Below are positions 42,001-64,000 of a stretch of 64,000 nt of DNA, piece after piece. A program made the translations under genes and the position numbers. How positions within the stretch are numbered: the stretch's first letter is position 1; each line of letters begins with the position of its first letter. The notes beneath the pieces are model-generated. The model made no database searches. It saw only the letters and a program-made list of their open reading frames with translations, and was not told the origin of the DNA. Source of the stretch: Fimbriosthenelais zetlandica (lineage: Eukaryota); contig OZ365109.1 in the NCBI GenBank assembly GCA_977030845.1, positions 59,582,001 through 59,646,000 of the forward strand. Reading direction: 5' to 3'.

Positions 42001-43736
42001 AGTTCAAATATCTAACACAGTGCCAGCACCACTATCCCCTCCCACACACTGACTGATGGAGGTATAACTATGATAGATCCCACACTCAATTTATTTATAT
42101 CCATTTCTGAATGATTTACTGTTGAGCACTGCTGTCCAATTATTTGATATTCCTCTTGTTGCATAAGTTCAATGAGCCGTCGCTGCATCTGTTATTTGAA
42201 GACTTGCATGACAATATTTGGGCAAGTTTGGGCTTCCAACGACAGAATACGCAACGAGAACGCAATAACCTAATACTGAAGATTAGCCATGGTAACTCCT
42301 ATAGAGTTATGTATAATAGCCTATATTGAATTCAAGGAAAGACTCATATAGTTTACTTCTTGAAAATTCAATGTTTTTCTCGTTCCAAAGGAAACCTCAT
42401 TGTTTTATACATTTATTCGGAAGTGGAGCAATGTCACTTAAAATGTATACAACATGTACTTTGAGGAAATATACATGTATGTATGCTAAATAAGAAATAA
42501 CCTCAGTCATTCAATTAAGCAATGCAGTAGGTGGTGCACGTTTGTCAGTGATGGGTCCAGGATGAGTGTGATGAGTTTGAACAAGATGGATAGCTTTAAT
42601 AAGAGATGATATATGTAGTAGTTCTGTCAACGACAGGAATATTAAGAACGTTCCCTCTACTCCCATGGGTCTACTCACATCGCTTACACAGAATACAGGT
42701 CCAGTAAACCTCCTACGCCAACCTCCCACTTAATTCCATGATGGCTAAAAGGTTGGAAGACCAATTCCTTATGTTCGTGAAATGCAATAACCTATACTTT
42801 ATGAGATTTATAATTAGGCCTACATTTAGACCTATACATGTATAATATGTGTTTTTCTTTTTTTAATTCTGGTACATTTCTTATTTGAATCCTCTTAATT
42901 CCTGTTGTGATGAAGTAACAACTTGCCTTAATTTTCAAATACTATTGCCTGCTATAAAGAGGATACACCATAGTCGTTCTAAAAATGGTAGGATAGACTA
43001 ATATAAATGTTAATTTATTTATAATCATTTCACAGAAGGGTACTGGGTACTAATCCTCCAATCCGTGTATCAGTACAAGGTGGTTTAAATATTGTGGAAT
43101 GTATCTGTAAGTCTTGAATTAATGGTGTCCATTGTAACATAGTGTTGGCCGTCTCGTATAGTCGACGGTCAAGAATCCAATATATCCTGGACGAGAGGAG
43201 TCTGACACGTGCCGAGGTACCTCCTACGCTGCAACTCGACAGGAAAAGGTCACATGGGTCAAATATCGAAAATGAGGCAAGCGGAAGTTGGGATGAACAA
43301 CGTGGATGAGGTCAAATATGGCGGCCCCCACATGAATGAACAGCCACTCTCTGCGGCTGTACAGATTGAGAATGCAACCTGTTGACATACCATGGGAGTT
43401 CCATGTTTGAATGGGTGAATGCCACATTATAGCCCCTCATCCTGTCACTAATGTACTGTCAGGCTCGCCATGGTGAAAGGCACCATTGCTTGGGTCTCAC
43501 ATGAGTCATCTTCTTCCTCCCTTTACTGACCTTTTAGGACCCCTCATTAAAGGAAACCTTAAAATACACTAACTAGGTCTGACACCTAAGGTCAGTAGCT
43601 TTTCCCTTATGACAAATACATTTGCATAATTGCACTCTTTGTCCTCCTTGACTAACTGATAGTGTTGAGAAGGAAATGACAAGGAACGTAGGGCTTTAGC
43701 TGCTTGTATGGCTGCCATTTCTTCATGTACAGCAAC

Positions 43737-43740
43737 TCTT
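43737..43740. repeat. Left target-site duplication TCTT
   Basis: The same 4-mer lies immediately after the 3' LTR at 47673-47676. Confidence 0.85.
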
Positions 43741-44815
43741 TGTAGAATCACGAATGATTCTAGGGTATGGAAAATGCCCAAAATGCCACATATTTTCCCA
43801 CATCTTGTGCACCCATCACGTTTCCCCGTTATATGATGGAGTCAAGGATTCTCATTAGCGGGGAGAGAACGTTAGAGGGGGGTGTATGGGATTTATCATC
43901 TGACACCTCGATAGCTGGACATCTGGAGGGGCGCATATCCTAATTAGATTATGCTAATGGGCGTCCCTCTTGGTGTGTGTGTCTATAGACGCTGGGAAAG
44001 TTTAAGTTTAAAAGTTAAAATTATTAATTCCTCCCTGGTATTGTGTATTATTTCAGCTATCATTATAATCATCTTTGTTTCCCCCTATATTGCAATAGGT
44101 TTTTCTAAATACCTTTTTATACATTGTTTCAATAGTTCTTTACAATCGATAAGTTTTAGGATGACATCATGTTTGTAATCATGTATGTAGGCCTACTTAC
44201 TTTTATTTATGTATCGTGTTTTGATTTTGTATCATTTATGTTTGTGTAAATGTTTTATTGTTTTACATGTAGATATGCATGTGCATCTACATGTATCAAC
44301 CACTTTTACTTCAACATTTTGTTTGTATGTGTGGATCTTATATTGTATACATGTAGGTAAAATGCCTGTGTATTGACGCTTGTAGTGACGTTCGATATTT
44401 GCTATGACATGTTTGTATGAATTAGGGATATGATATGTAACACCCAGATGTTCTAGCTGGTCAGTCAGGGATGGACCTGAGAAGGGGGTTCATGCCTGGG
44501 CAACGGTCAATATCTTATGGATAGTTCGCCAAGACCGTTGTAGGTGGCGTGGGTGTAGACCCCGGAAACCCCCATGTATCGGGCTCCCTGATTGGCTACG
44601 CTAGAGTTGACCACTAGAGGGTGCAACAGTCACCCACATCTGAATAAAAAGGGGTGAGAGTTTGCTATCGCTCTCTTGTCCCCGAGGCGCTCTTACCCTC
44701 TTGAGATCTTAACCAACTTAAACGAGACTTCTCTCATTCCTTCACTTTAATATTCTTAAAGTCGTGGGCCTCATGGACCCATAGAAATGGGGGACTAACA
44801 GTCCCAGACTTTACA
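43741..44815 (+). repeat. 5' LTR (1075 bp)
   Basis: Runs TGTAGAATCA...GACTTTACA. Line-by-line comparison with 46598-47672 showed no difference. The ORF track has the same 75-aa ORF at 43951 and 46808. Confidence 0.97.
44591..44654 (+). promoter_or_regulatory. LTR regulatory signals: inverted CCAAT box and AATAAAAAGGGG (TATA-like or poly(A) signal)
   Basis: ATTGG at 44591-44595 and AATAAA at 44643-44648, in the 3' third of the LTR. Both recur in the 3' LTR (+2857). Promoter versus poly(A) role cannot be resolved from sequence. Confidence 0.4.
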
Positions 44816-44833
44816 CTGACGACCTACGACGAG
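44816..44833 (+). other. Degenerate primer-binding site
   Basis: CTGACGACCTACGACGAG lies immediately after the 5' LTR. Without the 7-nt CTACGAC duplication it reads TGACGACGAG, 9/10 to TGGCGACGAG (complement of the metazoan tRNA-Ser(GCT) 3' end, recalled rather than searched). Confidence 0.45.
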
Positions 44834-44940
44834 ACTATTGCTGTCGCAAGATAGCAGGACTCCTGGAATGTGAAGTTCTGAGAAGCTCGGAGATTGCAGA
44901 TTGTCTCCCAACGATAGACCACGGCATGGACCAAGTTGAC

Positions 44941-45053
44941 CAGTGGATCTCGGCATCAACTTGTAGGGTAAGTGGCGACAATTTTGCAGGTTTGGTAGAC
45001 CCTGGCACCAACATGTTGTTCTTATTACTTCTTGATTTCTGGAGATTAGTATG
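44941..45053 (+). pseudogene. Possible aspartic-protease remnant inside the LTR element
   Basis: A stop-free frame reads QWISASTCRVSGDNFAGLVDPGTNMLF, resembling V.G...LVD(T/S)GA of retroelement proteases. The catalytic motif is altered to DPG. Confidence 0.3.
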
Positions 45054-45324
45054 ATGATTATGATGTGATTTCCGGGTAGATTCTAACTACATGGGTAATG
45101 TGGGGGAGTTGGAATGTGGTATTGGTAGTTTTTATTGATATTGATTGTGTGGTGCCTTGGGTTAAACCATTACTTGTGGATGAGCCACAAAACCTTTGCA
45201 TGTGATGTTCGGTTGACCACTAGGTTATGAGCTACTCAGGCCTCAGCAAACGATCATCGCCCTCCAGATGTGGCTGACGATGGACGGTCCTAATGACAGA
45301 GGGGCATGAGGTTGCACCTGTACA

Positions 45325-45741
45325 GTGGTAGTACTAGCGCGTGTGGATGGACATGGATGGGACATTCATGGTCCTCTCCTCCCCAGTTGGTACCTGGAAG
45401 GCCACGTGTTGTCTACCCAAGCTACACGTTCTCTTATTTCTAAGGTGGTAAGGGAAATGGGGAGTCAGAGTCCCCGAGATGTGCTGCCTCTATCGCCCTG
45501 GCTATGTGTCTCAGCCAATGATCAGAGCTGTGTAGGGATCGTTATTCAACATTATTCCGGGGTGAGGGCTACTGCACATGAAAATGTGGGGCTGGGGGAA
45601 GTGTGTCCCTCCTATTCCACGCTTCCCACAGACCCCCGCCTCATCCCCCGGGGTTTTGTTGTCTCCTCCAGTCTTTTCATGAGTCAAAAGGATGTACTCC
45701 GGTACGGCTGTCATGCTCTTTCTACATGTGTTTTCTATTGA
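45325..45741 (+). pseudogene. Possible integrase-core remnant inside the LTR element
   Basis: The 138-codon ORF contains RV...DIHGPLLPS, VLSTQATRS and SPRDVL, loosely echoing RV.xD..GPLP.S, YIL..DY.TR and G.PREIL of Gypsy rve domains. Very degenerate. Confidence 0.3.
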
Positions 45742-45888
45742 CCAACAATATATAACAAATGTGAACTATATCTAAATCTGCAAGTCTACAATAATAATGC
45801 ATCATGCAACTAGTGACAATGCTATTTTTACGATGCACTATGGACATTATACAGTGCCTTGGATGCCCCCGGTGACAATCTTTAAACC

Positions 45889-46011
45889 TTTCCATAAAAT
45901 ACGGACATTATGATATTATGGAAGGTGAATTATTCTTATTGTGTTTTTCTTATGTGTGTGTTGGCATTATCTTACTTTTCCATAAATTCGGACATTATGT
46001 ATATTATGGAA
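45889..46011 (+). repeat. Imperfect 35-bp direct repeat (2 copies), each an inverted repeat
   Basis: TTTCCATAAAATACGGACATTATGATATTATGGAA (45889-45923) and TTTCCATAAATTCGGACATTATGTATATTATGGAA (45977-46011). TTCCATAA/TTATGGAA arms in both. Confidence 0.85.
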
Positions 46012-46267
46012 CGCAAAAGTATTAATGTCAAAATATCTCTCTAATATAAGTGTGTACGGTTGTGCACAGGGCCTTATATTCTATGTGTGTTCTATTGGTG
46101 TATGTTTCGACTCGTTAAATATTGGAACCTGTTGCACAGTTCCATTCTTGAGCCGTGCCGATGGATCAACATGTTGAGGCATTTGGGCTAAATTCCATCG
46201 TGTCATATATTTTGTATTGTGTACGGATAGCCACATGGGCTTATTTTCTGATTGGTTAGTCTATTAG

Positions 46268-46542
46268 TAAAATGTCGTGTTGACGACAGTGCTGGTAAAG
46301 GCAGGGGCCTACCGTAAGCAATGTAGATTTAGGATTATGTTATACTCGTGTTTGAGGTTGCTCCACGTGTATATATGATCGATTAATTGCTTATTTTAAA
46401 ATGTTGTGTTGACAACAGTGCTAGTAAAGGCAGGGGCCTACTAGAACCATTGTAGAGTAAGTTTTGTGTTAACAAAACCTTACTATCTTGTGTTTAAATT
46501 GTTAATGTTGTACTTGTGTTTGAGCTTGCTCCACGGGTATAT
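46268..46542 (+). repeat. Imperfect tandem duplication in the 3' interior of the element
   Basis: A 45-bp block at 46268-46312 matches 46397-46441 with 3 mismatches. A second block TACT(C/T)GTGTTTGAG(G/C)TTGCTCCACG(T/G)GTATAT occurs at about 46343-46374 and 46511-46542. Confidence 0.9.
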
Positions 46543-46550
46543 TGCTACCT

Positions 46551-46597
46551 AAAAAAAAAAAAAAATAAAAAAAAATAAAAAAAAAGTGAGGAAGGTA
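46551..46597 (+). other. A-rich tract plus polypurine tract (plus-strand priming site)
   Basis: A15-T-A9-T-A9-GTGAGGAAGGTA directly abuts the TG of the 3' LTR. Confidence 0.8.
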
Positions 46598-47672
46598 TGT
46601 AGAATCACGAATGATTCTAGGGTATGGAAAATGCCCAAAATGCCACATATTTTCCCACATCTTGTGCACCCATCACGTTTCCCCGTTATATGATGGAGTC
46701 AAGGATTCTCATTAGCGGGGAGAGAACGTTAGAGGGGGGTGTATGGGATTTATCATCTGACACCTCGATAGCTGGACATCTGGAGGGGCGCATATCCTAA
46801 TTAGATTATGCTAATGGGCGTCCCTCTTGGTGTGTGTGTCTATAGACGCTGGGAAAGTTTAAGTTTAAAAGTTAAAATTATTAATTCCTCCCTGGTATTG
46901 TGTATTATTTCAGCTATCATTATAATCATCTTTGTTTCCCCCTATATTGCAATAGGTTTTTCTAAATACCTTTTTATACATTGTTTCAATAGTTCTTTAC
47001 AATCGATAAGTTTTAGGATGACATCATGTTTGTAATCATGTATGTAGGCCTACTTACTTTTATTTATGTATCGTGTTTTGATTTTGTATCATTTATGTTT
47101 GTGTAAATGTTTTATTGTTTTACATGTAGATATGCATGTGCATCTACATGTATCAACCACTTTTACTTCAACATTTTGTTTGTATGTGTGGATCTTATAT
47201 TGTATACATGTAGGTAAAATGCCTGTGTATTGACGCTTGTAGTGACGTTCGATATTTGCTATGACATGTTTGTATGAATTAGGGATATGATATGTAACAC
47301 CCAGATGTTCTAGCTGGTCAGTCAGGGATGGACCTGAGAAGGGGGTTCATGCCTGGGCAACGGTCAATATCTTATGGATAGTTCGCCAAGACCGTTGTAG
47401 GTGGCGTGGGTGTAGACCCCGGAAACCCCCATGTATCGGGCTCCCTGATTGGCTACGCTAGAGTTGACCACTAGAGGGTGCAACAGTCACCCACATCTGA
47501 ATAAAAAGGGGTGAGAGTTTGCTATCGCTCTCTTGTCCCCGAGGCGCTCTTACCCTCTTGAGATCTTAACCAACTTAAACGAGACTTCTCTCATTCCTTC
47601 ACTTTAATATTCTTAAAGTCGTGGGCCTCATGGACCCATAGAAATGGGGGACTAACAGTCCCAGACTTTACA
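46598..47672 (+). repeat. 3' LTR (1075 bp)
   Basis: Copy of 43741-44815, preceded by the PPT and followed by the TSD TCTT. Confidence 0.97.
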
Positions 47673-47676
47673 TCTT
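47673..47676. repeat. Right target-site duplication TCTT
   Basis: Matches 43737-43740. Confidence 0.85.
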
Positions 47677-49749
47677 GTTGTTGCCATTGCAATTGCCTCT
47701 GATGATATGATTACTCTGAGGAACTAATTAGAAAAATGATAAGTCTTTTATGGCATGCATCAAACGTTTAATCCTAAAACAATGTGATAATGCTGGTGGT
47801 GGAAAAGGAACTGGCTGAGGAACGTGACTGAGATAGTGTGTTTGTGGGTATACAAAAGAGGCTGTGTGATAAATGATGAGGCAGTGGGGTAATCACTTCA
47901 TAATGTGCAGTAGTGTTACGGTCATTAGGCAGCTGTGATGATCTAATGGTAGGGTGTGTGGGATCGGCATGCCATATCAGGCACGTAGGGCTGGGCTAAT
48001 GAGTCAACAGCCTGGCGTCACACATTTACCTTGCATTACTTTCCATCCTATATCATCATTCTACCTTAGAAAGAAAGGGAAGTGGGAGTGTCTTAGGCCC
48101 TTATGATATACTGCACCTTCACAGCCATATAACGAGTTGCTCCCCTCCCAATGATGAACACGATTCCTTCAGGCACCATCAGTGAAAAATGGCTCAATTC
48201 CTTTTAAATGTTTAAAGAACTTGGTGAACACAAGTGGCATGATTTACTTCTTCAACAGTTTTATGTTCGGTTTGCATGGCAACTGGCTCGGTAGAACATA
48301 TGATCTCTATCACTTATGTGAACATCTTGAAGCATGCAAAGGGGCCATTGTGTGATTACCTACTAAACCTATGAGTGAAACCCAGTCCACTTTAGCCCTT
48401 TAACCTCTCCTAAACTTATGAGCTCTGATAAACCCAATATACCACCATCTCAGACAGCCTACAGCCAAATTAGGTCAATATTCCCCTACTGGAATTTCAT
48501 ACACTTCTTATAGAACCCAATACAATGGCTGTTCTCCAGAAAAACAACAGGGGAGGTTTTTTTTAACATTTACCAGAGATGGACCTATGGGGAAATTGTG
48601 TGTATTTATGTTATTTCTTTTATCAAAAAGGCCCTGGGTTAGTGATCAGTGACTTGGTTCACGTTTGGTTTACCACATTTCAGTCAGGCTCCAGGACTTT
48701 GTATGTGTACTCAGGGTGAAACCTCCCAGAAATTGCCTTCATTTTCTCTCTGTGTGGCACTGACACGAACATGCCGTGTACATCCCTAGATTCACCCGGT
48801 GAAGTTTTGAATTAAAGGACATGTTTTTGGACATTGTATGTTGGCTGGCAAAGCACAAGGGGTCACACCCGCCATCCAATACAATGATTATAAAAAACTA
48901 TAATATAAACTTGCAATTGTAATGAAATACTATCTATAGGATTCCATTTGTAAAATGCGTTTGAGTTCCTACTAAATTTCAAATTTGCTCGCTGTTTTCT
49001 GTTGTTAGGCTACTAAAAAATTAATTATTAAAGTATGCAAATGCCTCTCAATATTCATGAATATAAAAATCATTCTGCCTTTATAGTTTCATCTAAATAA
49101 ACTTTACCTACTAATAAATTACGATCATAAAACGAATCTTCCTACGGTTTTAATTCCACTTGCCATGTTGGTGTATTTATAGCCAAGTTCGTGATGCGGA
49201 GAAACTACATTATTCATACATAGGAAAATTGTACTGAGAGGTCGGAATTTGGACTGAGCGGTCGGAATTTGTATTCACAAAGCTATCAGATGGTTAATTC
49301 CCTTGGGAAATATTTATGCCTTCTCTTAACATTGAAAGTCAACCTCCTTTTGTACATGATGGAGGACAGTCGTATAAGAGGCATCTAATAATATTTCCCT
49401 TCCTTTTTCATTGCAGGTATGTATATGCATCAATCATCCCCACTTGTGATGCTAGAGTAGCTTGACACAGGAGTGTCTCTGGTGGCCTGGGAAATGCACA
49501 TGTGTCAACGCTTTATACAGAAGAAAAAAGCCCAACAGTAAGTCGAAAATGGTGTCAGTAAAACCTAGCCTTGTTTGTTGTATGAGGGTAAATGATCTTT
49601 TTTTGGTCAGACAGATGCAGATGACAGCCATGGTTTGAATCCAAGGCTCATTTTATAATGGTGATGGAATGTGCTCCAAGAAGTAGTTAGGATAACATGG
49701 CTTTATTTCGAGGAGCTTTATCTTGTGTTCAAATAACACGTTCATGAGG

Positions 49750-50420
49750 ATTTTTGGATGATGCCTTCTTATATAATATTATCATGACACTGGTCATGTG
49801 ACAATTGGACCTGGGTTATAAATGCAAAGGAAGGTCTATAGCCGTTTGCCATTTGGCTCTGTATTTTAGTGTTTACAAGCCACCCAAAAAATCCCTCTCT
49901 GAAAAAAAGGCTTACAAAAGATACCAGGCATAACCTAGTAAATACTGGACCAAAGCCCATGGTCCTGTTTGCCTGGTCCTATCAGGTGCCTTTAAATTGC
50001 TTCCCACTATTTTTATTCATTGTTTTGTAACCCCCATTACGTCGGGGAAAATCTGGCAGAAAGAAGTTTGTCAGAATCCATTGGTTTAAAAGAAGGAAGC
50101 CCAAATTGGAGGAGACTTCAGAATCCACGGATTTTAGATTCAGACATTAAGAACAGCAACAAGTCCCAATTAGGAATCACAAATGGCAAAGCTATCAATT
50201 GATGCAGCGCAAATCAGTCGAGTACGTGACGATTGTTATTATGCAACATGGGTTCCATTGAAAGTTGGAAAACATGTAGTCCTGACTGTAAGGAAAATTT
50301 CATGGATATGCTGTTGTAAGATTCTGTTAACAATAGATTAGTGATGTTACAGAAATATTAGAAAAAAAACCTATGACAGTGCATGGAGGACAAAAAAATA
50401 TTAGGTTCACAGGTGCACTG
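49750..50420 (+). pseudogene. Eroded Ty3/Gypsy RT-RNase H fragment
   Basis: DFWMMP (~GFWQ.P), VYSRLPFG (RLPFG at 49843-49857), LSIDAA (DAA at 50201, ~DAS), CYYA (~VAYAS), ILEKKPM (~I..KPL). Spacing is much shortened. Confidence 0.45.
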
Positions 50421-51491
50421 CTGTCATTGTGCTGATTGCCATATGCTAGGGCAATCATAATAGTACGTATGTATGAGAATATAAACTTGTACTCGTCAAA
50501 GACCTATGGTCCAATCAGCTCTGACGGATGAGATGGCAACACATAAAATATAAATTAAACAGCTCCTTTTATCATTACCATTAGCACCATACATACTTTA
50601 TTATTAACACAGAAATAATGATACCTCAATTAAGCCTGCTTTTTGCACCATTCCATTCATTCCTTGTGAGAAATTATTCATTGAAGGAATCAATTGCTCC
50701 TATAGTACAAATGTGCAATGCAGAAATTCCCCCTGACTGAATTTAAGATATTTCTTACTTACTTTGTACCAATGAGTTAAATACAAACATCCCTAATCCG
50801 AACATCCCAAATTCTGAAGCGAAATATTTTTCGTCATGATATCACAGTTAATAAACACATCCCTGTAATTCTTTATCCAGAAAATTGGGACATCGTTTTG
50901 TGAATCATCTTGTAGAGAAACCGCCCGGGCTTCATTCACAGACGACCCATTTAGCAATGCAAAGACCTGCCCAGTAGTAAAGAGTACATCACACCACGAT
51001 ACAAAGGCAGGCCATTATGAAATGCCAAATGCACAGCTCGTATTACTGTGTTGGTAGACTGTGTGACCCTTACACTTAGGCCTGTCCATACAAACTATAT
51101 AAACCTTGAGCAATGGCAGAGAGTGGGAGAATAGTACCTGATTGCCCTGACGCTTCTATTCATAACAAACACTCTGTGGTGACAGATACATCGATCCCAT
51201 CCTTACCTTAAGGCCCTTAAAGATCTCTGTTTGGGTACACACAAAATATATGCTATGAACACCGAGAGTGAACACTCCAACGTAATCTCGGACAATCAAA
51301 CGAATTGGAAGGTCTTCTACAGAGTGTTCTCCTCTGGGAATACCTCATCTGTTTGCACATCTCTAATATGAGCATTGAACTTCGATACTTCAAAGAGGTA
51401 TCAGGAGAAGCGCGATAATGACAGGGTCGTAAGTGCAAGGGTAGCCTGGTACAAAGCCTGAAGCTCATACCATACTACTCACATTGTAATT

Positions 51492-51950
51492 GAGGAGGGG
51501 AAAAAGCCATTGTCGCCGTTTCCGCAGCTGAAAAGGCACGATGGGCGCTACAGGATATTGGGATCGATTCATGAAAATTGTGGATTAGATTTTGAAACGG
51601 AGTAGAATGTCAATAGCGCGATTGTTTGGAAACATGAAACGGGCAATACTGAAGATCACACAGTAAGGAAAAGCAAAGCCTTTGGTCATTATTTATAGGC
51701 TTCACCGCTGATTACAATATCTACGGAGGTTTTGGACCAATTAAGCGATCAATGTTCACCAAGGGTTACTGAGAATTTAAACTATTTGTCGGATGATTTC
51801 TAATCAAAATTAGTCTCAAAGGGTTCTGTTGGAACGCACTTAAACGTGGCCTTTGTAATCTCTGATTCATTGGGTGATGATCCTATTGGATCACGATGAG
51901 GATTATAATTGGATTTTGTATTTTATGTGTTCTGAACGCTTAGGACTCCT
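51492..51950 (+). pseudogene. Eroded DIRS/Ngaro-like RT fragment
   Basis: One frame with two stops: LSPF..LKRHDGRYRIL (~SP...PKK.G..R.I), KAFG...ASPLI (~LPFG..SSP.IF), NYLSDDF at 51780-51800 (~HYLDDF). Confidence 0.4.
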
Positions 51951-52399
51951 CGTATCCATTTGCCTTCCAATTTAATAATTCACCCATCCATGCATTCATA
52001 TAAGCTACAGAGACATACTTTTATACGTCACGTTTCAATTTTTTTTTTCAGAAATAGAATGTACAGAGTTCAGGCTTTAAATTTGTCCATCTATAGATGT
52101 ACTCCTGCCCCAGTCACATATCATGTAGAAATGTGATTCTTCTTTCACCTCATCTGCCATTGCTTTAACTACGGTGTCAATTTTTACTGTGGATACTTTG
52201 CATTAGAAGTTCAGACATTAAAATCATACGTAGTGAACATTTTTATACTGTCTAATGGAAAATTCCGAACCTTTCATGAAGTATCCAGGGAAATGCGAAT
52301 CTATACAAAATGGAGACTTGTCCTCAAACGTCATTTCAACACCAAAGACTGACAAACCCAACACATTGTCACTGTTTTATTAATGCAGTCCACACATTT

Positions 52400-52640
52400 G
52401 TATAGAGGAAAATCCTCTGGCCAATGCCATTATGTTGGCATATTTCTGTTCCAACCTCCTTGGTTGCATGTCCTGCATGTATGATCTGGAGCCAAGATTC
52501 CAGCAGATAGTAGCAGACAGAAGAGGCTATAGTGCCAGGTGACACTCCGTATGTTATTCTTGCCCAACAATCGACCCATTCGTGCAACGTGAGAGACGAG
52601 GCCAATGGCAAAAGTCCTTTATTGTTGGCAGTGGTCATGG
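52400..52640 (+). pseudogene. Possible degenerate ankyrin-repeat segment
   Basis: NPLANAI, ADRRGYSA, GDTP and NVRDEANGKSPLLLAV..WGH resemble the ANK consensus (N..D..G.TPLH.A...GH). Confidence 0.25.
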
Positions 52641-53689
52641 CCTGGGGTCATGGACAGAAACACCAAACATTCAGCCACGACATCATGAATTGTGATAATG
52701 GAATCGGTGCGCTTGAAATGAAAATCGCGCAGCAGTTTCAGGGGCCTTGATATAAAACCTCGACATTTTTCTATGGCAAATATGGATGCTTTTGTCCGGG
52801 TGAATACATTTACGTCTGACACTTGATGAATTTGACACTGTTTACACCCTTTGGATTAGTCCTGTTCTTTTGTATAATTCTTATTTATTTATTAGCATGA
52901 ATAAATTATACTGTATTGCCAGCCTGTATTGACGGTTGTTTAGACGATAGATGATATAAGACTATATTTCCAATGAGGTCAATAATTTTGAGACAATTCT
53001 GTGACCAATGTGCGGAAAAGTATGTGGTTTTCAGATTTTTAACATAATGTTTAACATAGTTTACATGAATTATATAACCAAATATCACATGCAATTGCCT
53101 GATCAATGAAGGGAAATAGTATGGCCAACTATGACAGATCAGACAAAACCATTATGCCAATATATCTTCAGATGAGCCAATTCTAATCCAAATCAAGAAG
53201 AGAATTGGAAAATCTCTAAAAACATTGTGTCAGATGGGTCCTTTGTGCCCTGGCACGGACAAGACTTTAATCTCTTAGCTGACTGAAATACTTGTCCAAT
53301 TATCGAAGCAGACTAATCATTTGAAACAAAGCCTTTCAATGGAAAGGTTTTACCTCTTAAATTGCAGTGAGAATGCCGTTGTCATGGCAGAGAATTACTT
53401 TTCAAATGGGTGTGTGCATGCTTCTTTTAGATCGATAGAAAGTATCATCAATGACAAATATTATCTGTCTAATAAATATATCTTGTCAGACTGATGCAAA
53501 TTATTATCTCTTTGGTAATCAGGCTCATATCAGTAACTGATATGAGTTCTCCTTTCCATTCAAGACCTCTATAATTGGAGGGGGAGTTTTTTCTACGTGG
53601 TATGGGAGAGATTTGAAGCAGAAATTGCCATATAGAACTAGAGCAATGTGCTTGGTATCAACCAAGAGTCATTTAGACATAAGTGCCAT

Positions 53690-54620
53690 TCCTCTCCCCA
53701 TCATTCTCGACTAGTTGAAATGACTTCTCAAATAAGGGGAAATACTCCTCGGATCAGGCTGGTATTTGTAGCTCGTGCTCACTACCTATACCTTACCCCA
53801 GCACTCCAAAATGTTATTTTCCACTCGAGTCGTATGCTGAAAGTACCACCACTTCTCTTCTCCCAGAGCAGAAGAGATAAAGTTCCCCTCGTCATGGGCA
53901 AAGTCGGCAAACATCATCTCCGAATTTTATACACTTATTTTAGGTGCTTCGTCACGATTCCTTTCCAAGAGAGCACTTGGCCCATGTTTAAAATATGTAC
54001 CTGCCTGCATATAGAGGAAAATACATATTGACATGTGTATACTTATATACATACTTAAAAGTATAACACATGCTACTTTGACACCTTAGAAAATAACGTA
54101 GCGCTATTTTCTAATTATTGATGGGACTTAACATTTAGAGGTGGTGAAGTTAAGAATGGGGCGGGAGTAATGTATAGTGATTGATATACTTAAGAGGTGG
54201 TGACTATGATATATATACAGTTTGCCTGTCTGACTTTACCAAGTGTCCTGCATTTGGTAGGCTTACTTATACCAAGAAGCAGTGCACCTGAAGACACCAC
54301 CTGTTATCAGTCATCATTTACAGCAAAAAAAGGAAAAGACTTGTTCCTCGAGACGCCTCCACTTAACTTCTTCATCCGTCCCAAAAACATAATCCTCAAG
54401 AAGTCCCTCATTTCACAAGATAGTCCTCAACGTCTCTGACAAAATGACCCGAGGACGGCAAACACAATCACGACAACCGTTTTGAAAACATCTCCATCTC
54501 GCTGGAAAGGATAATTTTAATGAGAGGTTTTTGAATGGAATGTGGCACAGATTAGCCTTTACAGGCTAATACATCAGACGGAGGAGCTTTCAGTGAATTA
54601 AGACTAACAGGCACAAAGAG
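53690..54620 (+). pseudogene. Possible Penelope-like (RT thumb/linker/GIY-YIG) remnant
   Basis: SSPHH...SQIR...RI (~S.HP.H...SQ.LR..RI), KVPLVM (~RVPLV.TYHP), LFLETPPLNFFIRPKNI (~F..PP...RRPKNL), YIRRR...RHK (~YIG.T.R...R..EH). Confidence 0.3.
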
Positions 54621-55770
54621 TGGCATGCTTTGTATGTCAGCAGAGCCCGGCCTCCGATTGGCACCTTTCACCATGTTTGCCGCGTGCTGCACTATGGGTA
54701 ACGGAAGTGGGAGCTGGCAGGGTCGTGGCCGGCAACAAGCTGGTGAATTGCCGTGAACGCTGCCTTTTATGAAGCTTGGTCATGGTGCATTCAATCTCTC
54801 CCCACCTCCCAACATGGGTGCTTTTCACTTCCCCCACCCACTCTCAACCCCCTCTCCTATGTCACGGTATATATAAACCTGATCATGGCCGATTCCACAT
54901 CATTCAGTGGCTGCAATATGTTGTGACAAGGAACGATGAATTCTCGTGCCTGAGGATCATTTTTCCTCCAGGAGATGTCTCATCCGTGCATGGCAATGTG
55001 GCTGGCCAACAATACAGCAAAATTGATTCTTGATAAACTTCTTATTGATAGTTGATGCACTGGGCTAGATGCATATTAGAGTGGAAGTGTATACGGGGTA
55101 TTATGGTCAATTCAGAGGGAAAAGAGGAAGGGTGAAGTGGGCTAAGGATAAAGGCAAAGTATGACTGTATAGTACCATGCAGTCCCCCCAACCCCCATCT
55201 CCCCAACCTGCATGATGGCTTTGATGGCAATGGATGCCTTGCCTATCCCCCTTCACACCCTGTACTGCAAAGTCCCCATACAAATATAGGCATGCCATTT
55301 GCATGTGTCTAAATGCGTTTAATGCACAGCCATTGCCATAAAGCCATAGAACCCTTACTACCAAACTGTTTCATGAATGCACACACTAAAACCCAGGTGT
55401 AAATGCAAGGTGTGCTTAATTAGCAACCGGGATATATTCGCCCAGCAACACGCGACCGACAAGTGTTCATAGGTGTCACCTTTTTATCAGGGGCTAATAT
55501 CAATTTAAACCCTTTTCAAATCCGATCCTTTTATGCCATGGGATTAAGGTCTGATGAAATTGAACCGTGTACTGCTTTATACTGAAAAAAGACAAATTTC
55601 CCAAGTACTGAATGGAGAACTATGTGTGCATTTATCCTGTTAATATTTCATTTTATCAAGAAAGATGGACCCACTATACCTATCATTGCAGAGGAATAAA
55701 TATTATGCATCTGTCAGACTGAATAGCTGAAATACAGCTGATATAAACAAATAGAGGTATAATGCATAGA

Positions 55771-56125
55771 CTTGCAATCGATGAGGCGAGGATCGGAAAA
55801 AGCAGATTTATGCCCAGGCTTCTCGGCATAATTATCCTGCCTATGGACTTGGCATTGTTTGTCCACATAATTGACCGGTACTGGAGGAACGGTCTGGAAC
55901 TGACCACCGGACATGCCTCCATAAAACCGATCTGCTGTCCAGTGCTCTGTTTCTATATACAGACTGTCGTGGCTGGCAGGTGCGGTCAGTGATGTATACT
56001 CACCCCCGCCTGTCAGACTCTACATGTAGACATGGCCACTGGTCAACTCCGACTTGCTTTCTCCCGATTTGCCATGACGACCCAACCGTGTCATGTCATT
56101 AATTTACTCTCATTGGCACTGACGT
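55771..56125 (+). pseudogene. Second eroded piggyBac-like transposase fragment
   Basis: LAIDEARIGKSR (~L.IDE.M..F.GR), ID...LELTTG (~D..GY...E.YTG), GH / D..SPDL (~GH..Y.DN..SP.L), IGT. Confidence 0.3.
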
Positions 56126-57459
56126 GTGAGCTGGCCATGGTGGGATTGTAACCTATAGCTACAGCTTTATATATAACACTTTATATTGTGCTTTCCACAT
56201 TAGTGAAATGTTGGGGGTAGGATTTAGTCACGGAAGATCACGTATCAAGGCAACTAATCATTACACAAATGATACACAAGTCATTATACATGTATATATC
56301 TCATGTATTCACAAAATATGTATCAATCTGACCATTGGATACACTGATGTACTATTGCACACAAAGTAATGTAGCATTAACCAATATGAGTATCACTCGT
56401 GGCTACGCTACGCTCTGCCCATAGCAAGGGCATTTTTTTTTTATTATTTAGAATATTCATGGTTGTTTTGCACTCCATCTACCCAGATGCAACCCTTTTT
56501 GCAAACTCTTTCTATTTTCACTTGGGCTATTATAAAAAAAACCAGGATGAGCAAACTTATCCAGTCCAGCATGTTAGCATGTTGTCTCTATTTCCTATAC
56601 ATGTAAAAGCCCTCATATGTTTGAATGTACAGCAAGAGCAGGAACTACAAGGCTGTCATATGTCTATTTCAATTGATACTCTAGCTCTCGATGTTCGGAT
56701 TTCTTAACAGGAAAAATGATAGAGCTCTGGTAAGCATGATGTACTGGATCACGCTATAAGGTAATAATACTGAGGCTAATGCTCTAACACAGTGAACCCG
56801 TGGGAAACACTTCAAGTCTAGGTCTGGCGGGTTCCACATTCTAATTTCGCCGTGAAAAATTTAAAGTATTAAAGCTTCAAGGAGCAGACATTGCGTGGCT
56901 CATCCTGCCTAACCTTACATTGCAGCCTTCAAAACAGATTTTGAAGATTTTGCTGAGAACGAAATTAAACATTAGACTCTCACTTTCGAAGAAATATAGT
57001 TTTCATAAATTTAGAGACAAATATATATATGTGATAAGGCTTTAGTCTAGCACTTAGGAATGAAAGGCTGTACTAATTGTAACCTTTGAAAATACTTTGC
57101 AACATACATGCATGGACAGCGTTCGATCAATTGTATCCCTGGTGCTTGGGAACTAATGGTTCATAACCAAATGAATAAATGATTCTGTCAATATCTATAT
57201 GAAGGCCCATTCCAGACGAGGAGGCCAGGAGCAAGCATGCTTTCTCTGTGCCAATGCTTCTCATTAGGCCATGAAAATTACCATAAAATAACAACACTCT
57301 TCTTCTGCCACTTCAGGCTAGAATAATTAATAACAGACTAATCAGCCCTATCCAGACTCAGATAGCAATGCTTCCCTCCTTCTGCCGGGCCAAGATACCA
57401 ATATATTAATGCATAGAAGTATAATCAATAAACAATTTGATTATACATGAATTTTCTGA

Positions 57460-57755
57460 CCCTGGCTTCCAAAGACTGTTTAGGAGCCTTCATTGCTTGT
57501 AAGCCCTGGTTTGATAGAGATGAATCCAATATGTATTGAAATGGTAAACAATGGGTTTTGGAATAGTTTCATGACCTTAGTTTAACAAATTGGCTGAAAA
57601 GCCATGAATCTCTGTTGAGAAATAATAAATTCAGACCATCTGACCAGAAATCGATTGGGACGCCTGGGCGCCGATGATAAATATGAAAACATTACAAAAG
57701 TCCAGCCCCAAACCTTTCCATCTTTTATGTCGACTCTTATCGTTAATGATCTCTG
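57460..57755 (+). pseudogene. Eroded CR1/L2-type LINE RT fragment
   Basis: DCLGAF (~D.SKAF), TNWLKS (W at 57591), SIGTPG (~G.PQG), LIVNDL (VNDL at 57742-57753), in order. Confidence 0.45.
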
Positions 57756-58727
57756 AACACAATTTTCCAGCAATTAGCCGCGGGATGGATCGGAGGAGAG
57801 ATGGGAAGTTAGAAAGCGTAAGATGGAATATGAATCACAATTGTCAGGTCTGTGTGCATCACTCATATTGCAGACTTATAGATGTGTATTGGTGCATGAA
57901 GACCTTTCATATCAAATGTGTAAATACGGGGTTAGGTGGGTTAGTGGGTGTTGAATCTGAATCCCAATTGTAAGGTGATTAGGGAGTGGCCAGCTTTTGA
58001 TGTGGTCATGCACAGGTGTTATCTTTCCCACCCACACAAACCCCTGGTCACTCGTCCATTTCTATGACCATCTGTACCACCACATTAGCCATGCCCAGTC
58101 CAAGCAAAGAACTGAGGAAAACAAACCCAGTGCCGTGTGAAAATATCTAAATTTTACATTGCCACTGTTCGGTGTCGAGACCAGTTGATTAACATGCAGT
58201 TCAGGCATCAGGGTCAGTGTACCATTGTGAGGGTGGGCTTGAATGGTCACTCAGGGTGCGTGGATGACCCCAATGCAACCCCTTTAGGCTGACCTCTCAC
58301 TGTGTAAAGCACTGAATGTGAGACAACTTAATTGACCCATTCTACTTTATGTTATGCTGCTCCAGATGACCTCTGGATGTCTCATTGACTTGATTGCTCT
58401 AATGCTGAGAGGTGGGAACAAAATGCCACAGCTTCAACGACTAATGTGCTCATAAATTTCATCAACTCCTCGGCTCCCCAACTGCATGGCTAATTGTGTC
58501 ATAAAATCTTGATGTAAATAAATCACAACGTCTCAGTCTTTGATGGGACAGATGCAAATTGATCTGAATATTGTTGCTGAATGTCTCCATTCTGCGGTAG
58601 ATTAAGAGCGGCTGGGAAATACTTATTATGTGCACCTAGAATAACAGTCCGAAACATCCCATTTTGATGTTCTGAAATGGCCGACTATAATAATTAGGGC
58701 CTATGCTGCCATTTGAGATGCCCTTCA

Positions 58728-58766
58728 CCCCCCGCCTCCCAACCTCCCCACCCCCGCCTACCCCCC
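58728..58766 (-). other. Potential G-quadruplex tract
   Basis: Five C-runs (3-6 nt) in 39 nt on the + strand. Confidence 0.45.
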
Positions 58767-60932
58767 TTAGAAATTCCCATGGCCCTGAAATGTACTATGC
58801 CTTCTGCCATGAAGAAGTGCTGTTAATGTAGTGCTTTGAATGAATCAGCTTCGGAATTTCTGGTTCATATTTCTGTTTTACCTCCTTTCTGTTAAATCTT
58901 TCAAAGAAATGTCAAAGGACATTAAAGAGGACCCAAGGCCCTCATAGTTAATGGCTGCACAAACACAAGATGCCCACATCAAGAATGTGATCAGTGCATC
59001 AGTGCTTATCTCATTAACTGTGCTTTCTTTTAAAAGTTTAATAATTTTACAATTATGTGAATTGTGTGAGGATTATATATGAGTAAATGAATTAAATCAT
59101 ATCCATGATTAACTCCATTCAATACCACTGTTCATGGATCATGTTTGAACATAGTCAGTTCAGTTTTTAGTGTGCAAACTTCAGCTGCCCCTATATATTA
59201 TTACAAACCTGGCAATACAAAATGACCCTCGTTGTAATAAACATACTTAGTAAAAGAATAATCACAGGTGTATTTATGCTCTTAAAATAATAATGATATT
59301 CCTGACATGAGTGAAATTCTGTCATTCAAGCAATGTTTTTTTATCATTACCTTCTTGGAAGTGGATGCTATATGTAAACTACATTCATTTCTCCCCCATT
59401 ACTAATTCTCTATACAGTTTACATGGAGGGAAAATAAGTATTATGAATACTCTGAAACATATCTATAGATATATCCCTCCTTAGGGATTGATAACTTGCA
59501 CTATATAACATCTATTTAGTTAATCTATGTACTCATGCCAGTAATGTAGCAAAACTTCTGAAACGATCACCTGCATGGTATACAAGCTACCAGTATACTC
59601 TATATAAGCCTATGATAAGTTTATCGCTCGATATATAGAGCATAATGGCATTCCTTCTGAAGCATAAAAGTCATACATCATTAAAGTATTGAAGGTAGCC
59701 ATTTAACGAGTTATGTTAGACCCATGGATTGTGTGAGAAGGGTAGAGGCATTTGCTCTGCCATTCCATGTTATCATTGAAAGGGCGTGTCAAAGCCAATC
59801 AAATGGGAAAACCTGCAGAAGAGCAACCAATACTCGCGGAAAACCCTAGAAAGCAGTCAGTCAATCCACTCCCCGTGGACTTAGTCCCACAACACATGAA
59901 ACATTAACCCATAATTGGCCAACATAGAACAAATGGTTGCAAGCCCATTACCAGGCTGCAGCAAACAGGGCTAATTCATTTACTTCTTTAGAAGGGCAAT
60001 TGCAATGCAGCAGCAAAAGTACTATGAGTCTGATTCTGGCGCCTGTAAGTTGTGCATCTGTGTTCACTTGCCTGATGGCTAAAAGAGATATATATTGGTC
60101 CATTTAATGCCCAACGGAGAGTTTGTATTAGAAGCTGAATCCACAGGCTATTGATTTTTGTATTATGACACAGTGCTTGCCAATCATGATAGGTTATAAC
60201 ACGTATGATAGTAGAGAAAACTCTCTGCTTACAAACTCAAGCCTTCTACGTGAATTCACTATCCTTTATGTTCACCTCTGTGACATTTCTCTAGATGTGA
60301 CTTTGCGCCGACTGTATATACCTCATAGCCAGTCTAGATGTTGATTCAACTATCTGCTGCTTTCATTGAATCTGCATTGGGCACAACTGTGCCAATTAAT
60401 GATACATGTACACCCCTTGCACTCATCAAATTTATCTAATATGTTTCACTTAAAGGAATATAGTGATAGGAATATAGTACAGTGACAAAGTCTTGCACTT
60501 ATGTATTTAGGTAATAATTCCATGCAATATGCAGGCCATGCTTCAGAAGGAAACTGTGTGCACTGCTTTAACTAGTCCAGTGAGAAGAAAATCTAATCAA
60601 TTTTTCAAAAGGGTTTTTAAAAGTTCTCAATTATTTGGATTTTGTGGCTATTCAAGAAATTCCCTCCTTTTATCTTTGTGCTGACAGGAAATCCCTCTAC
60701 TAGTTTTGTAAGCAGAATAAATACTGAAATGTGAAAAGAAGATGAAATACTCGCTTCTAAGGACCGCTGTGATTGCATAAGCCCTCTATGTTAGTGATCC
60801 AGAGATCCTATTAGGAAGAGGGATAGGATATATTGCCTTATTTTATGCCATTCTCAATCTAATCCCTATGCAGTATCACTTTACAGGAACTGCCACAATG
60901 TATTCAACATAAAGATGCAATCGTTCCTTCCC

Positions 60933-61369
60933 ATTACCGAATTATGGCAATATCTAAATCTTTGATGACTTTGTTGTTGCCCGGAATTGGATTTTATGGC
61001 TGTAGCCCCATGCGGGTTGAAATGAGATCAGGCTGGGGAATGCTTCTGTAGGAGTAAGTTCGTATGTGTAAGAAATGTTGAAGATGTAGTTATTCAACAG
61101 AAGACGCAGCTGAATCCAGAATTGTCATCGTCATGCCTCAGTCCATCTTGAATATTCAGGTGCTGGGAGGCCCACATGCACTATCGATCTGCGGACATAA
61201 AAATGTGGATTGATGGCAGTTGATTGATTTTACATCACTCTCCGAGCAGAGCATAATACAACCCCTAGGGGCAAATCTCACCAGCAGAAAAAAAATCACC
61301 CCTCCGTATGAATCTCCTAATGGAAGAACAATTGCTTTTAAAGCAGTAAGATACGGGGACCTCGGTGTC
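60933..61369 (+). pseudogene. Possible LINE apurinic-endonuclease remnant
   Basis: ITELW (~ITETW), GWGMLL (~GGGVLL), YGDLG (~GDLN), in order. Weak. Confidence 0.2.
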
Positions 61370-64000
61370 TGTCTCACAGACACAGTGGAACAATGCCCTT
61401 TACACCTTACTCACAGGCAGTTGGACACCTTATCCATTCCTTTCTGTTTATACACAGTATTTGACAAGAGATAACATTTGCCATCGTTTTGCAAATTGAT
61501 TTATGGTTGTAGTTTGTTGTAGGGAGGATTTGTGTCCCCGCAAAGCTTGGCCTGTGAAAGTAATGAGCTGATCTGCAAGTAATGTAGCTGTCAGACAAAG
61601 GGCCTGCCTTGTCTTGGAGAACCCAACCCTATTGATTGTATTTATTGTATTCTCCTCCTAGATCCCAACGGGCAATCCTCACTAGTATATATATACCACA
61701 TCATGAAGACAATATTCCAGCCTGACCATACTATATTATATATATACATACAACCTTACCATTACCCCCATCAGGATGCTATGACTTCATCACCGTATAA
61801 GTGAATTTCCAAGCTGCTTCCTTGCTCAATGATCCTCCTCCTACTCCTACTCATGGTCTTCGCCTCCACCAACCACATGAATATTCATATATCATTCACA
61901 TTTCTATGCTCTGCCATTACAGGGGCTTGGTTTATGTCCCTCATTACCGGATTATCATTGTAGGGTATGTTTTATGTTGTACAGCTTTGATCGATGTCGC
62001 TATTATGTCTATACACGTTTGATCGTTTTTTCTCAGCTGGTTATTTTGTCCCTGACCTACAGAAGAGCTGCTGTATAGAGATGATTTATCTTTGATGCCT
62101 CATTTGTATTATTGGCAGTCCACATGTAATTAACCGGTGGTAAATTCTAAAAGATATATCACCTGTCCGTTTGTGTATACATCATTAACGTTATCAGGAA
62201 TAATCGCAATGTTAATCATGACCGTTTATCACTGCATCAGACTCTAGGGTCTCGGTATTGAGGACACCTTTCAATGCCTTTCCCTCTTTGCTATAGTTTG
62301 TCACTGTATCTGCTTATTGACACCGTTGGTGAGGTTTATGGTGATATATAGTGGACTGCACCTAGGTAGAGATCAATAGAACCTGGAGTACTCGTTCACA
62401 ATAGGTTCCTCCAGGGTTTGAAGGCGGTCAGATCCATCCTGTAGCTAAACACCCGGGAGAAACAATCCTCCGCTACATGATCCGCTCTGTCTGTGTCAAT
62501 ACGAGGACCATGAGGATAGGGTTACCGGGCTAGTTTCACCAACACTACCATTCACCAAAGCCCAAGGTCATTAAACCTGCAAAGATTCTTTCATCCATTT
62601 GGCGCCATAAAAAACTATTAAACACAGATGGAACAGATTGATTCATCCAAAAGGGCTGTTATGCTTTTTAACAAAAGAGGGCTTTAAATATGGGATTTAA
62701 ACATTACATAATCACCGGCATTTTGATCCCTGTAGCACACTCTCTGATCAAGGATGATCTCAGTAAATATCTACATTAAGCAATTTATTCACTCAGTAAC
62801 ACTGTAGATAGGTAAAGCTAGTACAAAGGTAATGATCGGCATCAAAGCCAGATAGGATCATATGAAACGTTCTCTTTGCAACGCAGGGAGATTTGCTCAG
62901 GATAATTCAAACTCCCAGGTCGTATTAGAAAGGTCAGTCTTCCAGTGCATATATCTATGCCTGACCAGGCTTTGGTCATGGTCCAGCTTCCCTAGGGGGG
63001 TCTCCTCTTGTGTCAAGGCTAGGCTTGGAGCTATACCTTAGCATCCTAAATAATACCTTCCAGTACAATTATTCAGGCATGTAAGACAATCCAAACCCAC
63101 TCCTGATCCCCACAAATGATAAAAATTACTGATAGTGTTTACATCTCGTATTTTGCATCTCACTTTATTCTAATATTTGTCCAAAATCGACTCTCTGAAA
63201 GTCCAGGATATGGTCCGGACAAGTGTGCATGTGGGGAAAATCAGTGTTTCACCTATTCTGCCCCATTGCTCGGCCTGACATGATTCAGTCCGACCAGATC
63301 GCATGTAATATTCAGGGCTACGGTTGCCTCAGCATTGTTGTCGGATCTCAACCATGAACCCCAAGCCTCGCCCACCCCTGTGTTCTTCTAAAAGTCATCT
63401 GTCGAAAGCCAACGCCTGAAAATCGTCGTCCGGCCCATTCCTTTCACATGCAAAAGTAATTGCCCACATTTCCAATCAACCACGAACCTGGCCCAACCCT
63501 CCTTTTAAATTATGGAGGAATCAGACTTAACGCAATAGCAGTGGATCTGGAATGTTCTTCGCCCAATCCTTGTACACGTACCTGTTAATATCAGTCGACA
63601 CGAAGCTTGGATTTACACAAAGCTATGATTAAAGTTATTAAAACCCGGCGGTTAAACCAGGAGTTCCTGATTATCAAGGGAATAATTAGAAGGAGTTATT
63701 GATGGAATAGACACGGTTTGGTGTATTGTATACGCCCCAAATCGGGGGCACTAGAGCACCTGCACATCCGATGAATTTCCCCTGAGCTGACATAGCATGA
63801 CTTTTTACCTCCGACAAGTGTTGGCGATAACATCTGGAGCTTTGTAATACAAAGGGTTTATATTTCACTCTGTAGTGAGCCTGACATGACCAGACATCTG
63901 ACACAAAGGCCTCAGTATAGGTGAGTCCATTGGCTAAACACACGGAGCCACCCGAGAAGCCATCGCGCTGAGGCTGAAGCTAAGTGGCTTCTATGCTAAT

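What the first reader, a model, noticed from the sequence alone, without database searches (positions are those of the whole stretch)
43741..47672. Very young non-autonomous LTR element with oversized LTRs and a non-coding, structured interior
Seen: the two 1075-bp LTRs show no visible difference, while the 1782-bp interior keeps at most ghost protease and integrase motifs. LTRs make up about 55% of the element. Known: LTRs are identical at insertion, so identity means recent transposition. Inference: this LARD/large-TRIM-like parasite is still being mobilised in trans by an active autonomous Ty3/Gypsy partner elsewhere in the genome. It is the only young sequence in an otherwise ancient 64 kb.
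Basis: partly seen in the sequence, partly recalled or inferred. Interest (0 to 1): 0.7.

Follow-up and report, generated by a model that had tools for sequence, protein, structure and literature searches.

The report
Young stowaway of an envelope-bearing retrotransposon
This is a recently inserted, gene-less jumping element in an animal genome whose tail end is about 93% identical to that of an intact, envelope-carrying Gypsy retrotransposon elsewhere in the same genome, which likely supplies the machinery that copies it, a known way of life in a little-studied kind of host.

Summary
Real, and mostly ordinary. The 3,932-bp element has two identical 1,075-bp LTRs, a 4-bp target duplication, a PBS for tRNA-Arg(TCG) and a PPT. 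The assembly holds 5 near-identical copies, 11 of a sister subfamily and many solo LTRs, at different sites. Candidate helpers exist: a young Ty3/Gypsy clade with the same termini and primer, including one gag-pol-env (F-type envelope) element. That element shares the last ~420 interior bases (93%), the PPT and the 5' part of U3. Chimeric LTRs with intact target duplications point to co-packaging. The 5' interior belongs to an older non-coding lineage of at least three families; it keeps a GNRA hairpin, a splice-donor motif and a faint trace of the pol tail. Corrections: the LTRs are not oversized (helpers 1.1-1.4 kb), the interior is not globally structured, and no protease or integrase-core ghost was found. 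Oddities: 36 of 37 PBSs are imperfect, 1 is an exact tRNA copy, and 4 of the 5 youngest copies mismatch the tRNA's CCA end. It works like ETn/MusD or Dasheng/RIRE2. Ongoing mobility and the actual helper are inferred, not shown.

The parts
43737..43740 (.). Left copy of the 4-bp target-site duplication (TCTT)
   Evidence: all 16 two-LTR copies and all 18 solo LTRs examined have a 4-bp duplication
43741..44815 (+). 5' LTR, 1,075 bp, TG...CA, identical to the 3' LTR
43741..44182 (+). 5' part of U3 (LTR 1-442) shared with the LTR family of the env-bearing element on contig C14: 86% to solo LTR L138, which continues as a C14-type LTR; C14 itself lacks about 275 bp of this block. Starts with a small hairpin and holds the 13-bp deletion point near 44063
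44455..44662 (+). LTR block (715-922) with an inverted CCAAT-like motif (44591) and AATAAA (44643); resembles LTRs of the env-less C11/C38 autonomous families and of non-autonomous family D more than C14
   Evidence: promoter or poly(A) role inferred
44817..44835 (+). Primer-binding site for tRNA-Arg(TCG), imperfect: mismatch at position 3 (opposite the tRNA's CCA end), one extra base, further mismatches
44839..44856 (+). GNRA-tetraloop hairpin just after the PBS, kept in autonomous and non-autonomous relatives with compensatory changes
   Evidence: (96.6% of cells paired, 2 of 7 pairs change on both sides)
44967..44975 (+). Canonical splice-donor motif; present in all 10 non-autonomous interiors scanned and, at a similar distance from the LTR, in 3 of 4 autonomous leaders
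   Evidence: use as a donor untested
45141..45238 (+). Conserved island shared by non-autonomous families A/B, C and D; faint DNA homolog of a block in the pol C-terminal tail of the autonomous clade, where it lies among branch-point and acceptor-like motifs about 0.35 kb upstream of env
   Evidence: no shared fold found
45560..45650 (+). Strong local GC-rich hairpin (window z -3.8); conservation across families not shown
46177..46597 (+). 3' trailer, 93% identical over 360 bp to the post-env trailer of the C14 element; holds two 129-bp-spaced repeats (46268-46342, 46397-46471) and an A-tract (46551-46585)
46586..46597 (+). Polypurine tract, same as in the C14 element; the PPT plus LTR-start pattern occurs 13 times in the genome: 12 non-autonomous copies and C14
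46598..47672 (+). 3' LTR, 1,075 bp
47673..47676 (.). Right copy of the target-site duplication (TCTT)

Best explanation
It is a recently inserted non-autonomous LTR retrotransposon that encodes nothing and is likely copied in trans by a young Ty3/Gypsy clade of the same genome, most likely by the family of the gag-pol-env element on contig C14. Shown: the cis parts (LTRs, PBS, PPT, 4-bp duplications), dispersed copies, and autonomous relatives with open frames and identical or near-identical LTR pairs. Inferred cycle: the 5' LTR makes a full-length RNA; helper Gag packages it, likely through the conserved leader (GNRA hairpin, donor region); tRNA-Arg(TCG) primes at the imperfect PBS; helper RT and integrase copy and insert it. 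Inferred history: an old non-coding lineage, itself a long-deleted member of the clade, acquired one contiguous 3' block (trailer, PPT, 5' part of U3; about 860 nt) from the C14 family by template switching in shared particles.
For: Five copies at 99-100% on four contigs and 11 at about 91%, each at its own site with its own 4-bp duplication. Copy L031 has a 13-bp segment in U3 of its 5' LTR but not its 3' LTR; the window copy lacks it in both, with 0 differences over 1,735 interior bases outside the A-tract. That is how reverse transcription spreads a U3 change. C14: gag (zinc knuckle), pol (RT, RNase H, integrase), env (Baculo_F, 32.7 bits, cut-off 24.1), identical 1,418-bp LTRs, 4-bp duplication. 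Trailer 93% to C14 and the same PPT. Chimeric LTRs with intact duplications: L085, L086, L087, L138; further chimeras L142, L152. Family D carries the trailer of a different env-bearing element (70-84%). All share the tRNA-Arg(TCG) primer; one copy (L055) has the exact 18-nt complement of the genome's main tRNA-Arg(TCG).
Against: No autonomous element with this LTR end was found: all 19 exact matches to the LTR-end/PBS pattern are non-coding or truncated. C14 is a single full-length copy and its LTR is mostly unlike ours. The env-less C11 family is equally young (LTR pairs with 0 and 2 differences; gag-pol copies 5-20 differences in 5,073 bp), has the same PBS form and the same first 21 LTR bases as the youngest subfamily, and resembles the LTR's 3' part better. 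The C14 sequence link may therefore record past rather than present help. The window's PBS pairs less well with the tRNA (-17 kcal/mol against -20 to -31 for relatives). No expression, particle or population data were available.
Confidence: 0.8

Rival explanations
1. Same kind of element, but the present helper is the env-less, fused gag-pol C11 family (or C38), and the C14 block is a relic of an earlier partnership.
For: The C11 family has several near-identical copies with a 1,691-aa open frame and LTR pairs with 0-2 differences. Its PBS form and first 21 LTR bases match subfamily A. LTR 715-922 resembles C11/C38. Pol is 85% identical across C14, C11 and C38, so the machinery may be interchangeable.
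Against: Only short or weak (65-77%) matches to C11/C38; the trailer matches C14 and not C11, C37, C38 or C1. The chimeric LTRs found are with the C14 family.
Confidence: 0.35
2. The element moved recently but is now dead; the youngest subfamily's PBS mismatch marks the end of the lineage.
For: Only five A-type two-LTR copies; weaker predicted primer pairing; one of the five already carries secondary insertions. By my arithmetic, 0 differences in 1,075 bp allow up to about 0.3% divergence, i.e. up to several hundred thousand years at recalled animal rates.
Against: The mismatched PBS is shared by 4 insertions at different sites, so it went through reverse transcription several times. Four A copies show 0 substitutions between their LTRs. 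Helpers are intact and equally young.
Confidence: 0.25
3. The LTR identity is an assembly or polishing artefact, or the element is a local duplication or gene-conversion product rather than a retrotransposition.
For: No reads could be laid on the locus, so the assembly is untested.
Against: The same assembly keeps LTR pairs apart when they differ by one 13-bp indel (L031) or by 1-10 substitutions (8 of 13 pairs). Each copy has unique flanks and its own duplication. The left flank is single-copy.
Confidence: 0.03
4. The interior encodes a small accessory protein, possibly through splicing, so the element is not purely parasitic.
For: A conserved donor motif follows a short ATG-started frame in families A, B and D.
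Against: The longer frames are not conserved between families or even between A and B; indels break them. No Pfam hit. Family C is out of phase at the donor.
Confidence: 0.05

Closest known systems
Mouse ETn / MusD pair (PMC7472051, PMC1331978; passages read)
   Same: A non-coding LTR element that depends on an autonomous relative using the same primer tRNA; the commonest PBSs are mismatched to the tRNA, with occasional perfect ones.
   Different: ETn and MusD share nearly identical LTRs and MusD has no env; here only part of U3, the PPT and the trailer are shared, the partner is a Ty3/Gypsy with F-type env, and trans-mobilisation is not shown by experiment.
Rice Dasheng / RIRE2 (via PMC5473765; passages read)
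   Same: Non-autonomous Gypsy-type element with a putative autonomous partner, similar target duplications, and chimeric elements between the two.
   Different: Plant, high copy number, no env reported in the passages read. Here there are about 16 two-LTR copies in an animal, and several non-autonomous families carry 3' ends of different helpers.
LARD and TRIM structural classes (PMC6696364, PMC6934838, PMC5718144; passages read; Kalendar 2004 not held, recalled)
   Same: LTRs, PBS, PPT, non-coding interior.
   Different: At 3.93 kb it sits on the 4-kb border between the classes; its LTRs are 4-10 times TRIM terminal repeats (100-250 bp); the interior is not globally structured.
F-type env errantiviruses of invertebrates (PMC13524379; abstract, section 8, first part of section 9 and passages read) - applies to the C14 partner
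   Same: gag-pol-env order, F-type env, LTRs, tRNA PBS, recent insertion.
   Different: The main text does not contain the word 'non-autonomous' or an Arg primer; its supplementary tables were not opened. The window element itself has no genes.
Non-autonomous grass pararetroviruses (PMC5491270; abstract only)
   Same: Partnership kept up by region-specific recombination of non-coding sequence between partners.
   Different: Caulimoviridae in plants; no LTRs or integrase.

Membership tests
Non-autonomous LTR retrotransposon (general) | Two LTRs with TG...CA ends and a target-site duplication | tested here: met
Non-autonomous LTR retrotransposon (general) | tRNA primer-binding site and polypurine tract | tested here: met
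   tRNA-Arg(TCG), imperfect in this copy; PPT
Non-autonomous LTR retrotransposon (general) | No gag or pol coding capacity | tested here: met
Non-autonomous LTR retrotransposon (general) | Dispersed copies made by reverse transcription | tested here: met
   16 two-LTR copies at distinct sites; a U3 deletion present in one LTR of L031 and in both LTRs here
LARD | Length above 4 kb (PMC6696364) | tested here: not met
   3,932 bp; uninterrupted subfamily B copies are 4.4-4.7 kb
LARD | Interior with conserved RNA secondary structure (recalled from Kalendar 2004; paper not held) | tested here: inconclusive
   No global signal; one conserved hairpin with covariation; no shared fold for the second island
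TRIM | Terminal repeats of 100-250 bp, total under 1 kb (PMC6934838); up to 4 kb in a wider definition (PMC6696364) | tested here: not met
   LTRs of 1,075 bp; only the wider size limit is met
ETn/MusD-type pair | Same primer tRNA as the autonomous partner | tested here: met
ETn/MusD-type pair | Nearly identical LTRs in parasite and helper | tested here: not met
   Only LTR 1-442 is shared with the C14 family; no autonomous element with this LTR end
ETn/MusD-type pair | Trans-mobilisation shown by experiment | not testable with these tools
F-type env errantivirus (the C14 partner) | gag, pol (RT, RNase H, integrase) and F-type env between LTRs, with PBS | tested here: met
F-type env errantivirus (the C14 partner) | Env expressed and cell-to-cell transmission | not testable with these tools
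   no expression data

The most novel reading that the evidence does not exclude
A long-lived, gene-less satellite lineage of invertebrate envelope-bearing Gypsy elements: it keeps its own packaging leader, survives helper turnover by capturing each new helper's 3' end, rides enveloped particles from soma into germline, and is selected for a PBS imperfect enough to escape tRNA-fragment silencing yet still primed, in a clade whose RT only rarely hands the tRNA sequence on to the progeny (1 of 37 copies), between retroviruses and yeast Ty3.
Probability: 0.2. Interest if true: 0.65.

Novelty: new member of a known kind. Interest (0 to 1): 0.38.

Why it matters
Non-autonomous LTR elements with an identified partner are well studied in mouse and rice but are rarely tied to a helper in invertebrates (the bivalve TRIM study found none, PMC6934838). 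Here parasite, candidate helpers and recombinants lie in one assembly, so the cis signals needed for packaging and priming can be read off from what three or more families have independently kept. The PBS series (36 of 37 imperfect, one exact tRNA copy, youngest subfamily mismatched at the CCA end) makes the priming-versus-silencing trade-off proposed for mouse ERVs testable in an invertebrate Gypsy clade. As a mechanism it is not new.

Tried and rejected
Rfam on 43000-48400 at E up to 1: 0 matches. ARAGORN on the window: no tRNA. Protease and integrase-core ghosts: rejected. Global interior structure: rejected. Conserved ORF across families: rejected. Shared fold of the second island: not supported (consensus energy -1.7 kcal/mol; the C14 row in that alignment was offset and overlaps only partly). 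Synonymous-site conservation of the pol-tail block is high for C14 against C38 (0.95-1.0 against 0.62 overall) but not for C14 against C11 (0.72-0.79 against 0.67), so it is only partial support. Five of the seven extra loci ending like tRNA-Arg were not tRNA genes and were dropped as primers. The LTR comparison for the C1 gag-pol copy was mis-cut and is dropped. Genome-wide searches of the window flanks were not scored. The LTR searches scored only 40 of 176 and 40 of 97 candidates, so solo-LTR counts are floors. Earlier findings: two look-ups, nothing shown. Literature searches for a non-autonomous partner of an invertebrate env-bearing Gypsy (listings only, except the papers named) showed none; most subscription papers are not held, so this does not show absence. 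The env protein had one homolog at 36%; the pol search gave mostly unnamed hits up to 66%, so the helper was not placed in a named Gypsy lineage.
Full report
1. Observation. The repeat is exact. LTRs 43741-44815 and 46598-47672 are 1,075 bp with no difference, the interior is 1,782 bp, the ends are TG...CA and the insertion is flanked by TCTT on both sides. The sense strand is +: a PPT abuts the right LTR and a PBS the left. The window lies on contig C1 of a 447-Mb assembly. TTAGGG-type telomeric arrays and a collagen-like frame in fetched loci indicate an animal; an invertebrate is inferred from the kind of helper. The interior has no + strand frame above 143 aa and no Pfam match.

2. Family. 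The 5' half of the interior finds five places at 99-100% (subfamily A, including the window) and eleven at 89-92% (subfamily B), with all 36 candidates scored. All 16 are two-LTR elements at different sites, each with its own 4-bp duplication. All 18 solo LTRs examined also have one. Of 13 LTR pairs aligned, 5 have no substitution and 8 have 1-10, so the assembly does not simply homogenise LTRs. A is a shortened derivative of B (interior 1.78 against 2.3-2.6 kb). Copy L031 has a 13-bp segment in U3 of its 5' LTR and lacks it in its 3' LTR; the window copy lacks it in both and equals L031 over 1,735 interior bases, differing only by two bases in the A-tract. The simplest reading is that the window copy descends from L031 by reverse transcription. 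A mixed particle giving L031 two different U3s is the alternative; the copy at L034/L035, whose 5' LTR starts B-like and whose 3' LTR is A-like inside one duplication, shows that such mixed copies exist. By my arithmetic, 0 differences in 1,075 bp bound divergence at about 0.3%; the age in years depends on a rate I do not have for this host.

3. Helpers. The 3' half of the interior hits one further place, contig C14. There lies an element with gag, pol and a 655-aa third frame that has a hydrophobic N-terminus and a Baculo_F match above the curated cut-off, between identical 1,418-bp LTRs with a 4-bp duplication (feature neighbours in the ESM Atlas are F-type envelope clusters). The last ~420 interior bases match its post-env trailer (93% over 360 bp) and run through the same PPT into the same LTR start. 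The exact PPT/LTR-start pattern occurs 13 times in the genome: 12 non-autonomous copies and C14. Searches with C14 gag and env reveal a clade: C38 (gag 79%, no env) and a C11/C37/C10/C1 family (fused 1,691-aa gag-pol, no env), with the same terminal motifs and LTR pairs differing by 0, 0 and 2 bases. Pol is 85% identical among them. No autonomous element carries our LTR end: all 19 exact matches to the LTR-end/PBS pattern are non-coding or truncated.

4. Mosaic structure. A tile map shows three sources. LTR 1-442 matches the C14 family through solo LTR L138, which continues as a C14-type LTR; C14 itself keeps bases 1-35 and 312-442 and lacks the block between. LTR 715-922 resembles C11, C38 and family D. 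The 5' interior matches only other non-coding families (C, D), which have different LTRs. [quoted passage not shown] Chimeric LTRs with crossovers at other points and intact duplications (L085, L086, L087; also L142, L152) fit repeated co-packaging; gene conversion before insertion is not excluded. Family D carries the trailer of another env-bearing element, and three truncated copies on C39 join a B-type LTR to a D-type leader. The direction of capture is inferred by parsimony.

5. What the interior keeps. It is not globally structured. Three pieces are conserved. (a) A GNRA hairpin after the PBS, in 18 autonomous and non-autonomous leaders: 96.6% of cells paired, 2 of 7 pairs changed on both sides, 0 of 500 shuffles as high for paired cells but 106 of 500 for pairs with double changes; the sequences are related, so this is moderate support. 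(b) A splice-donor motif 115-180 nt after the LTR in 10 of 10 non-autonomous interiors and 3 of 4 autonomous leaders. It may serve to suppress poly(A) use in the 5' LTR, as described for retroviruses (PMC3694450, search listing only); this is untested. (c) An island at 45141-45238 whose DNA profile hits the pol tail of the C11 family at E 0.003 against 0.32 for the best reversed control.

6. Primer. The genome has arrays of tRNA-Arg(TCG) whose 3' end matches the PBS series. Of 37 PBSs listed (31 non-autonomous, 6 autonomous; some are segmental or tandem duplicates), one (L055) is the exact 18-nt complement of the main tRNA; its four family-C sisters differ from it at three PBS positions, while three full-length sisters differ from it by 3-4% elsewhere. 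Copying from the tRNA is the likelier cause, but two of the three changes are at CpG and an ancestral perfect PBS is possible. Four of five A copies, including this one, mismatch at position 3, opposite the CCA end, and have the weakest predicted pairing; the fifth has a canonical start. Retroviruses inherit the tRNA sequence about half the time, yeast Ty1 and Ty3 do not (PMC7472051, PMC5371799; passages read). This clade looks close to Ty3 with rare exceptions. In mouse ERVs mismatched PBSs are proposed to evade tRNA-fragment silencing (PMC7472051); whether that applies here is untested.

7. Comparison. It works like ETn/MusD and Dasheng/RIRE2. It fails the size test for LARD by 70 bp and the terminal-repeat test for TRIM; those classes are structural labels and add little. 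The C14 partner fits the F-type env errantiviruses surveyed across invertebrates (PMC13524379), whose main text does not mention non-autonomous partners (supplements not opened). Five paper searches showed no such partner described, within the limits of the library.

8. Verdict. It is a new member of a known kind, with an unusually complete record of helper, recombinants and PBS variation. Which helper acts now, and whether the element still moves, remain open. Interest 0.38.

Noticed in passing
L065/L071 (G000:C14:1822842-1834030, - strand): Young gag-pol-env Gypsy element with identical 1,418-bp LTRs, an F-type env and separate, overlapping gag and pol frames; a single full-length copy was found.
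   Followed up: yes
L101/L102 (G000:C21:10.570-10.577 Mb) and matches on C27, C11, C21: A second, more distant env-bearing Gypsy family (env 28-29% to C14) with several copies and long open frames; further env-like families at 21-30%.
   Followed up: partly
L090-L095, L088 (C11, C37, C10, C1, C38): Young env-less members of the same clade keep the leader donor motif and the acceptor-like block in the pol tail although they have no env.
   Followed up: partly
L051, L053, L055, L057 (family C); L060-L064, L103 (family D): Two more non-autonomous families with the same leader but different LTRs (1.6 and 1.15 kb); L061 is a tandem array with three LTRs; L103 sits inside an env-bearing element in opposite orientation.
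   Followed up: partly
L034/L035 (G000:C11:17.659-17.667 Mb): One insertion whose two LTRs differ by about 11% in their 5' halves but are 99.4% identical in their 3' halves, with an intact 4-bp duplication and two inverted-repeat elements (1.3 and 2.6 kb) inserted.
   Followed up: partly
L096, L098, L100 (C27, C10, C1): Related Gypsy family (gag 53-55% to C14) with short LTRs of about 480 bp and the same LTR start and PBS start; L096 appears internally deleted.
   Followed up: no
L108-L119 (C1:8.10 and 9.07 Mb, C11:14.14 Mb; pattern matches on C25:13.59 Mb): Tandem arrays of tRNA-Arg(TCG) and tRNA-Arg(CCG) genes at about 160-180 bp spacing.
   Followed up: partly
L032:1429-2076 (-): The copy on C10 lies beside a frame with a P-loop motif that resembles a Polinton/Maverick-type packaging ATPase (resemblance recalled, not tested).
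   Followed up: no
L069, L070, L083 (C39): Three truncated B-LTR/D-leader chimeras with shared flanks (segmental duplication), followed by a 206-aa frame without a Pfam hit.
   Followed up: partly
window 1-43736 and 47677-64000: About 60 kb without Pfam-detectable coding sequence or matches to the fetched repeat-rich loci; two small tandem repeats (2866-2893, 49229-49271). Likely a gene desert or large intron.
   Followed up: partly
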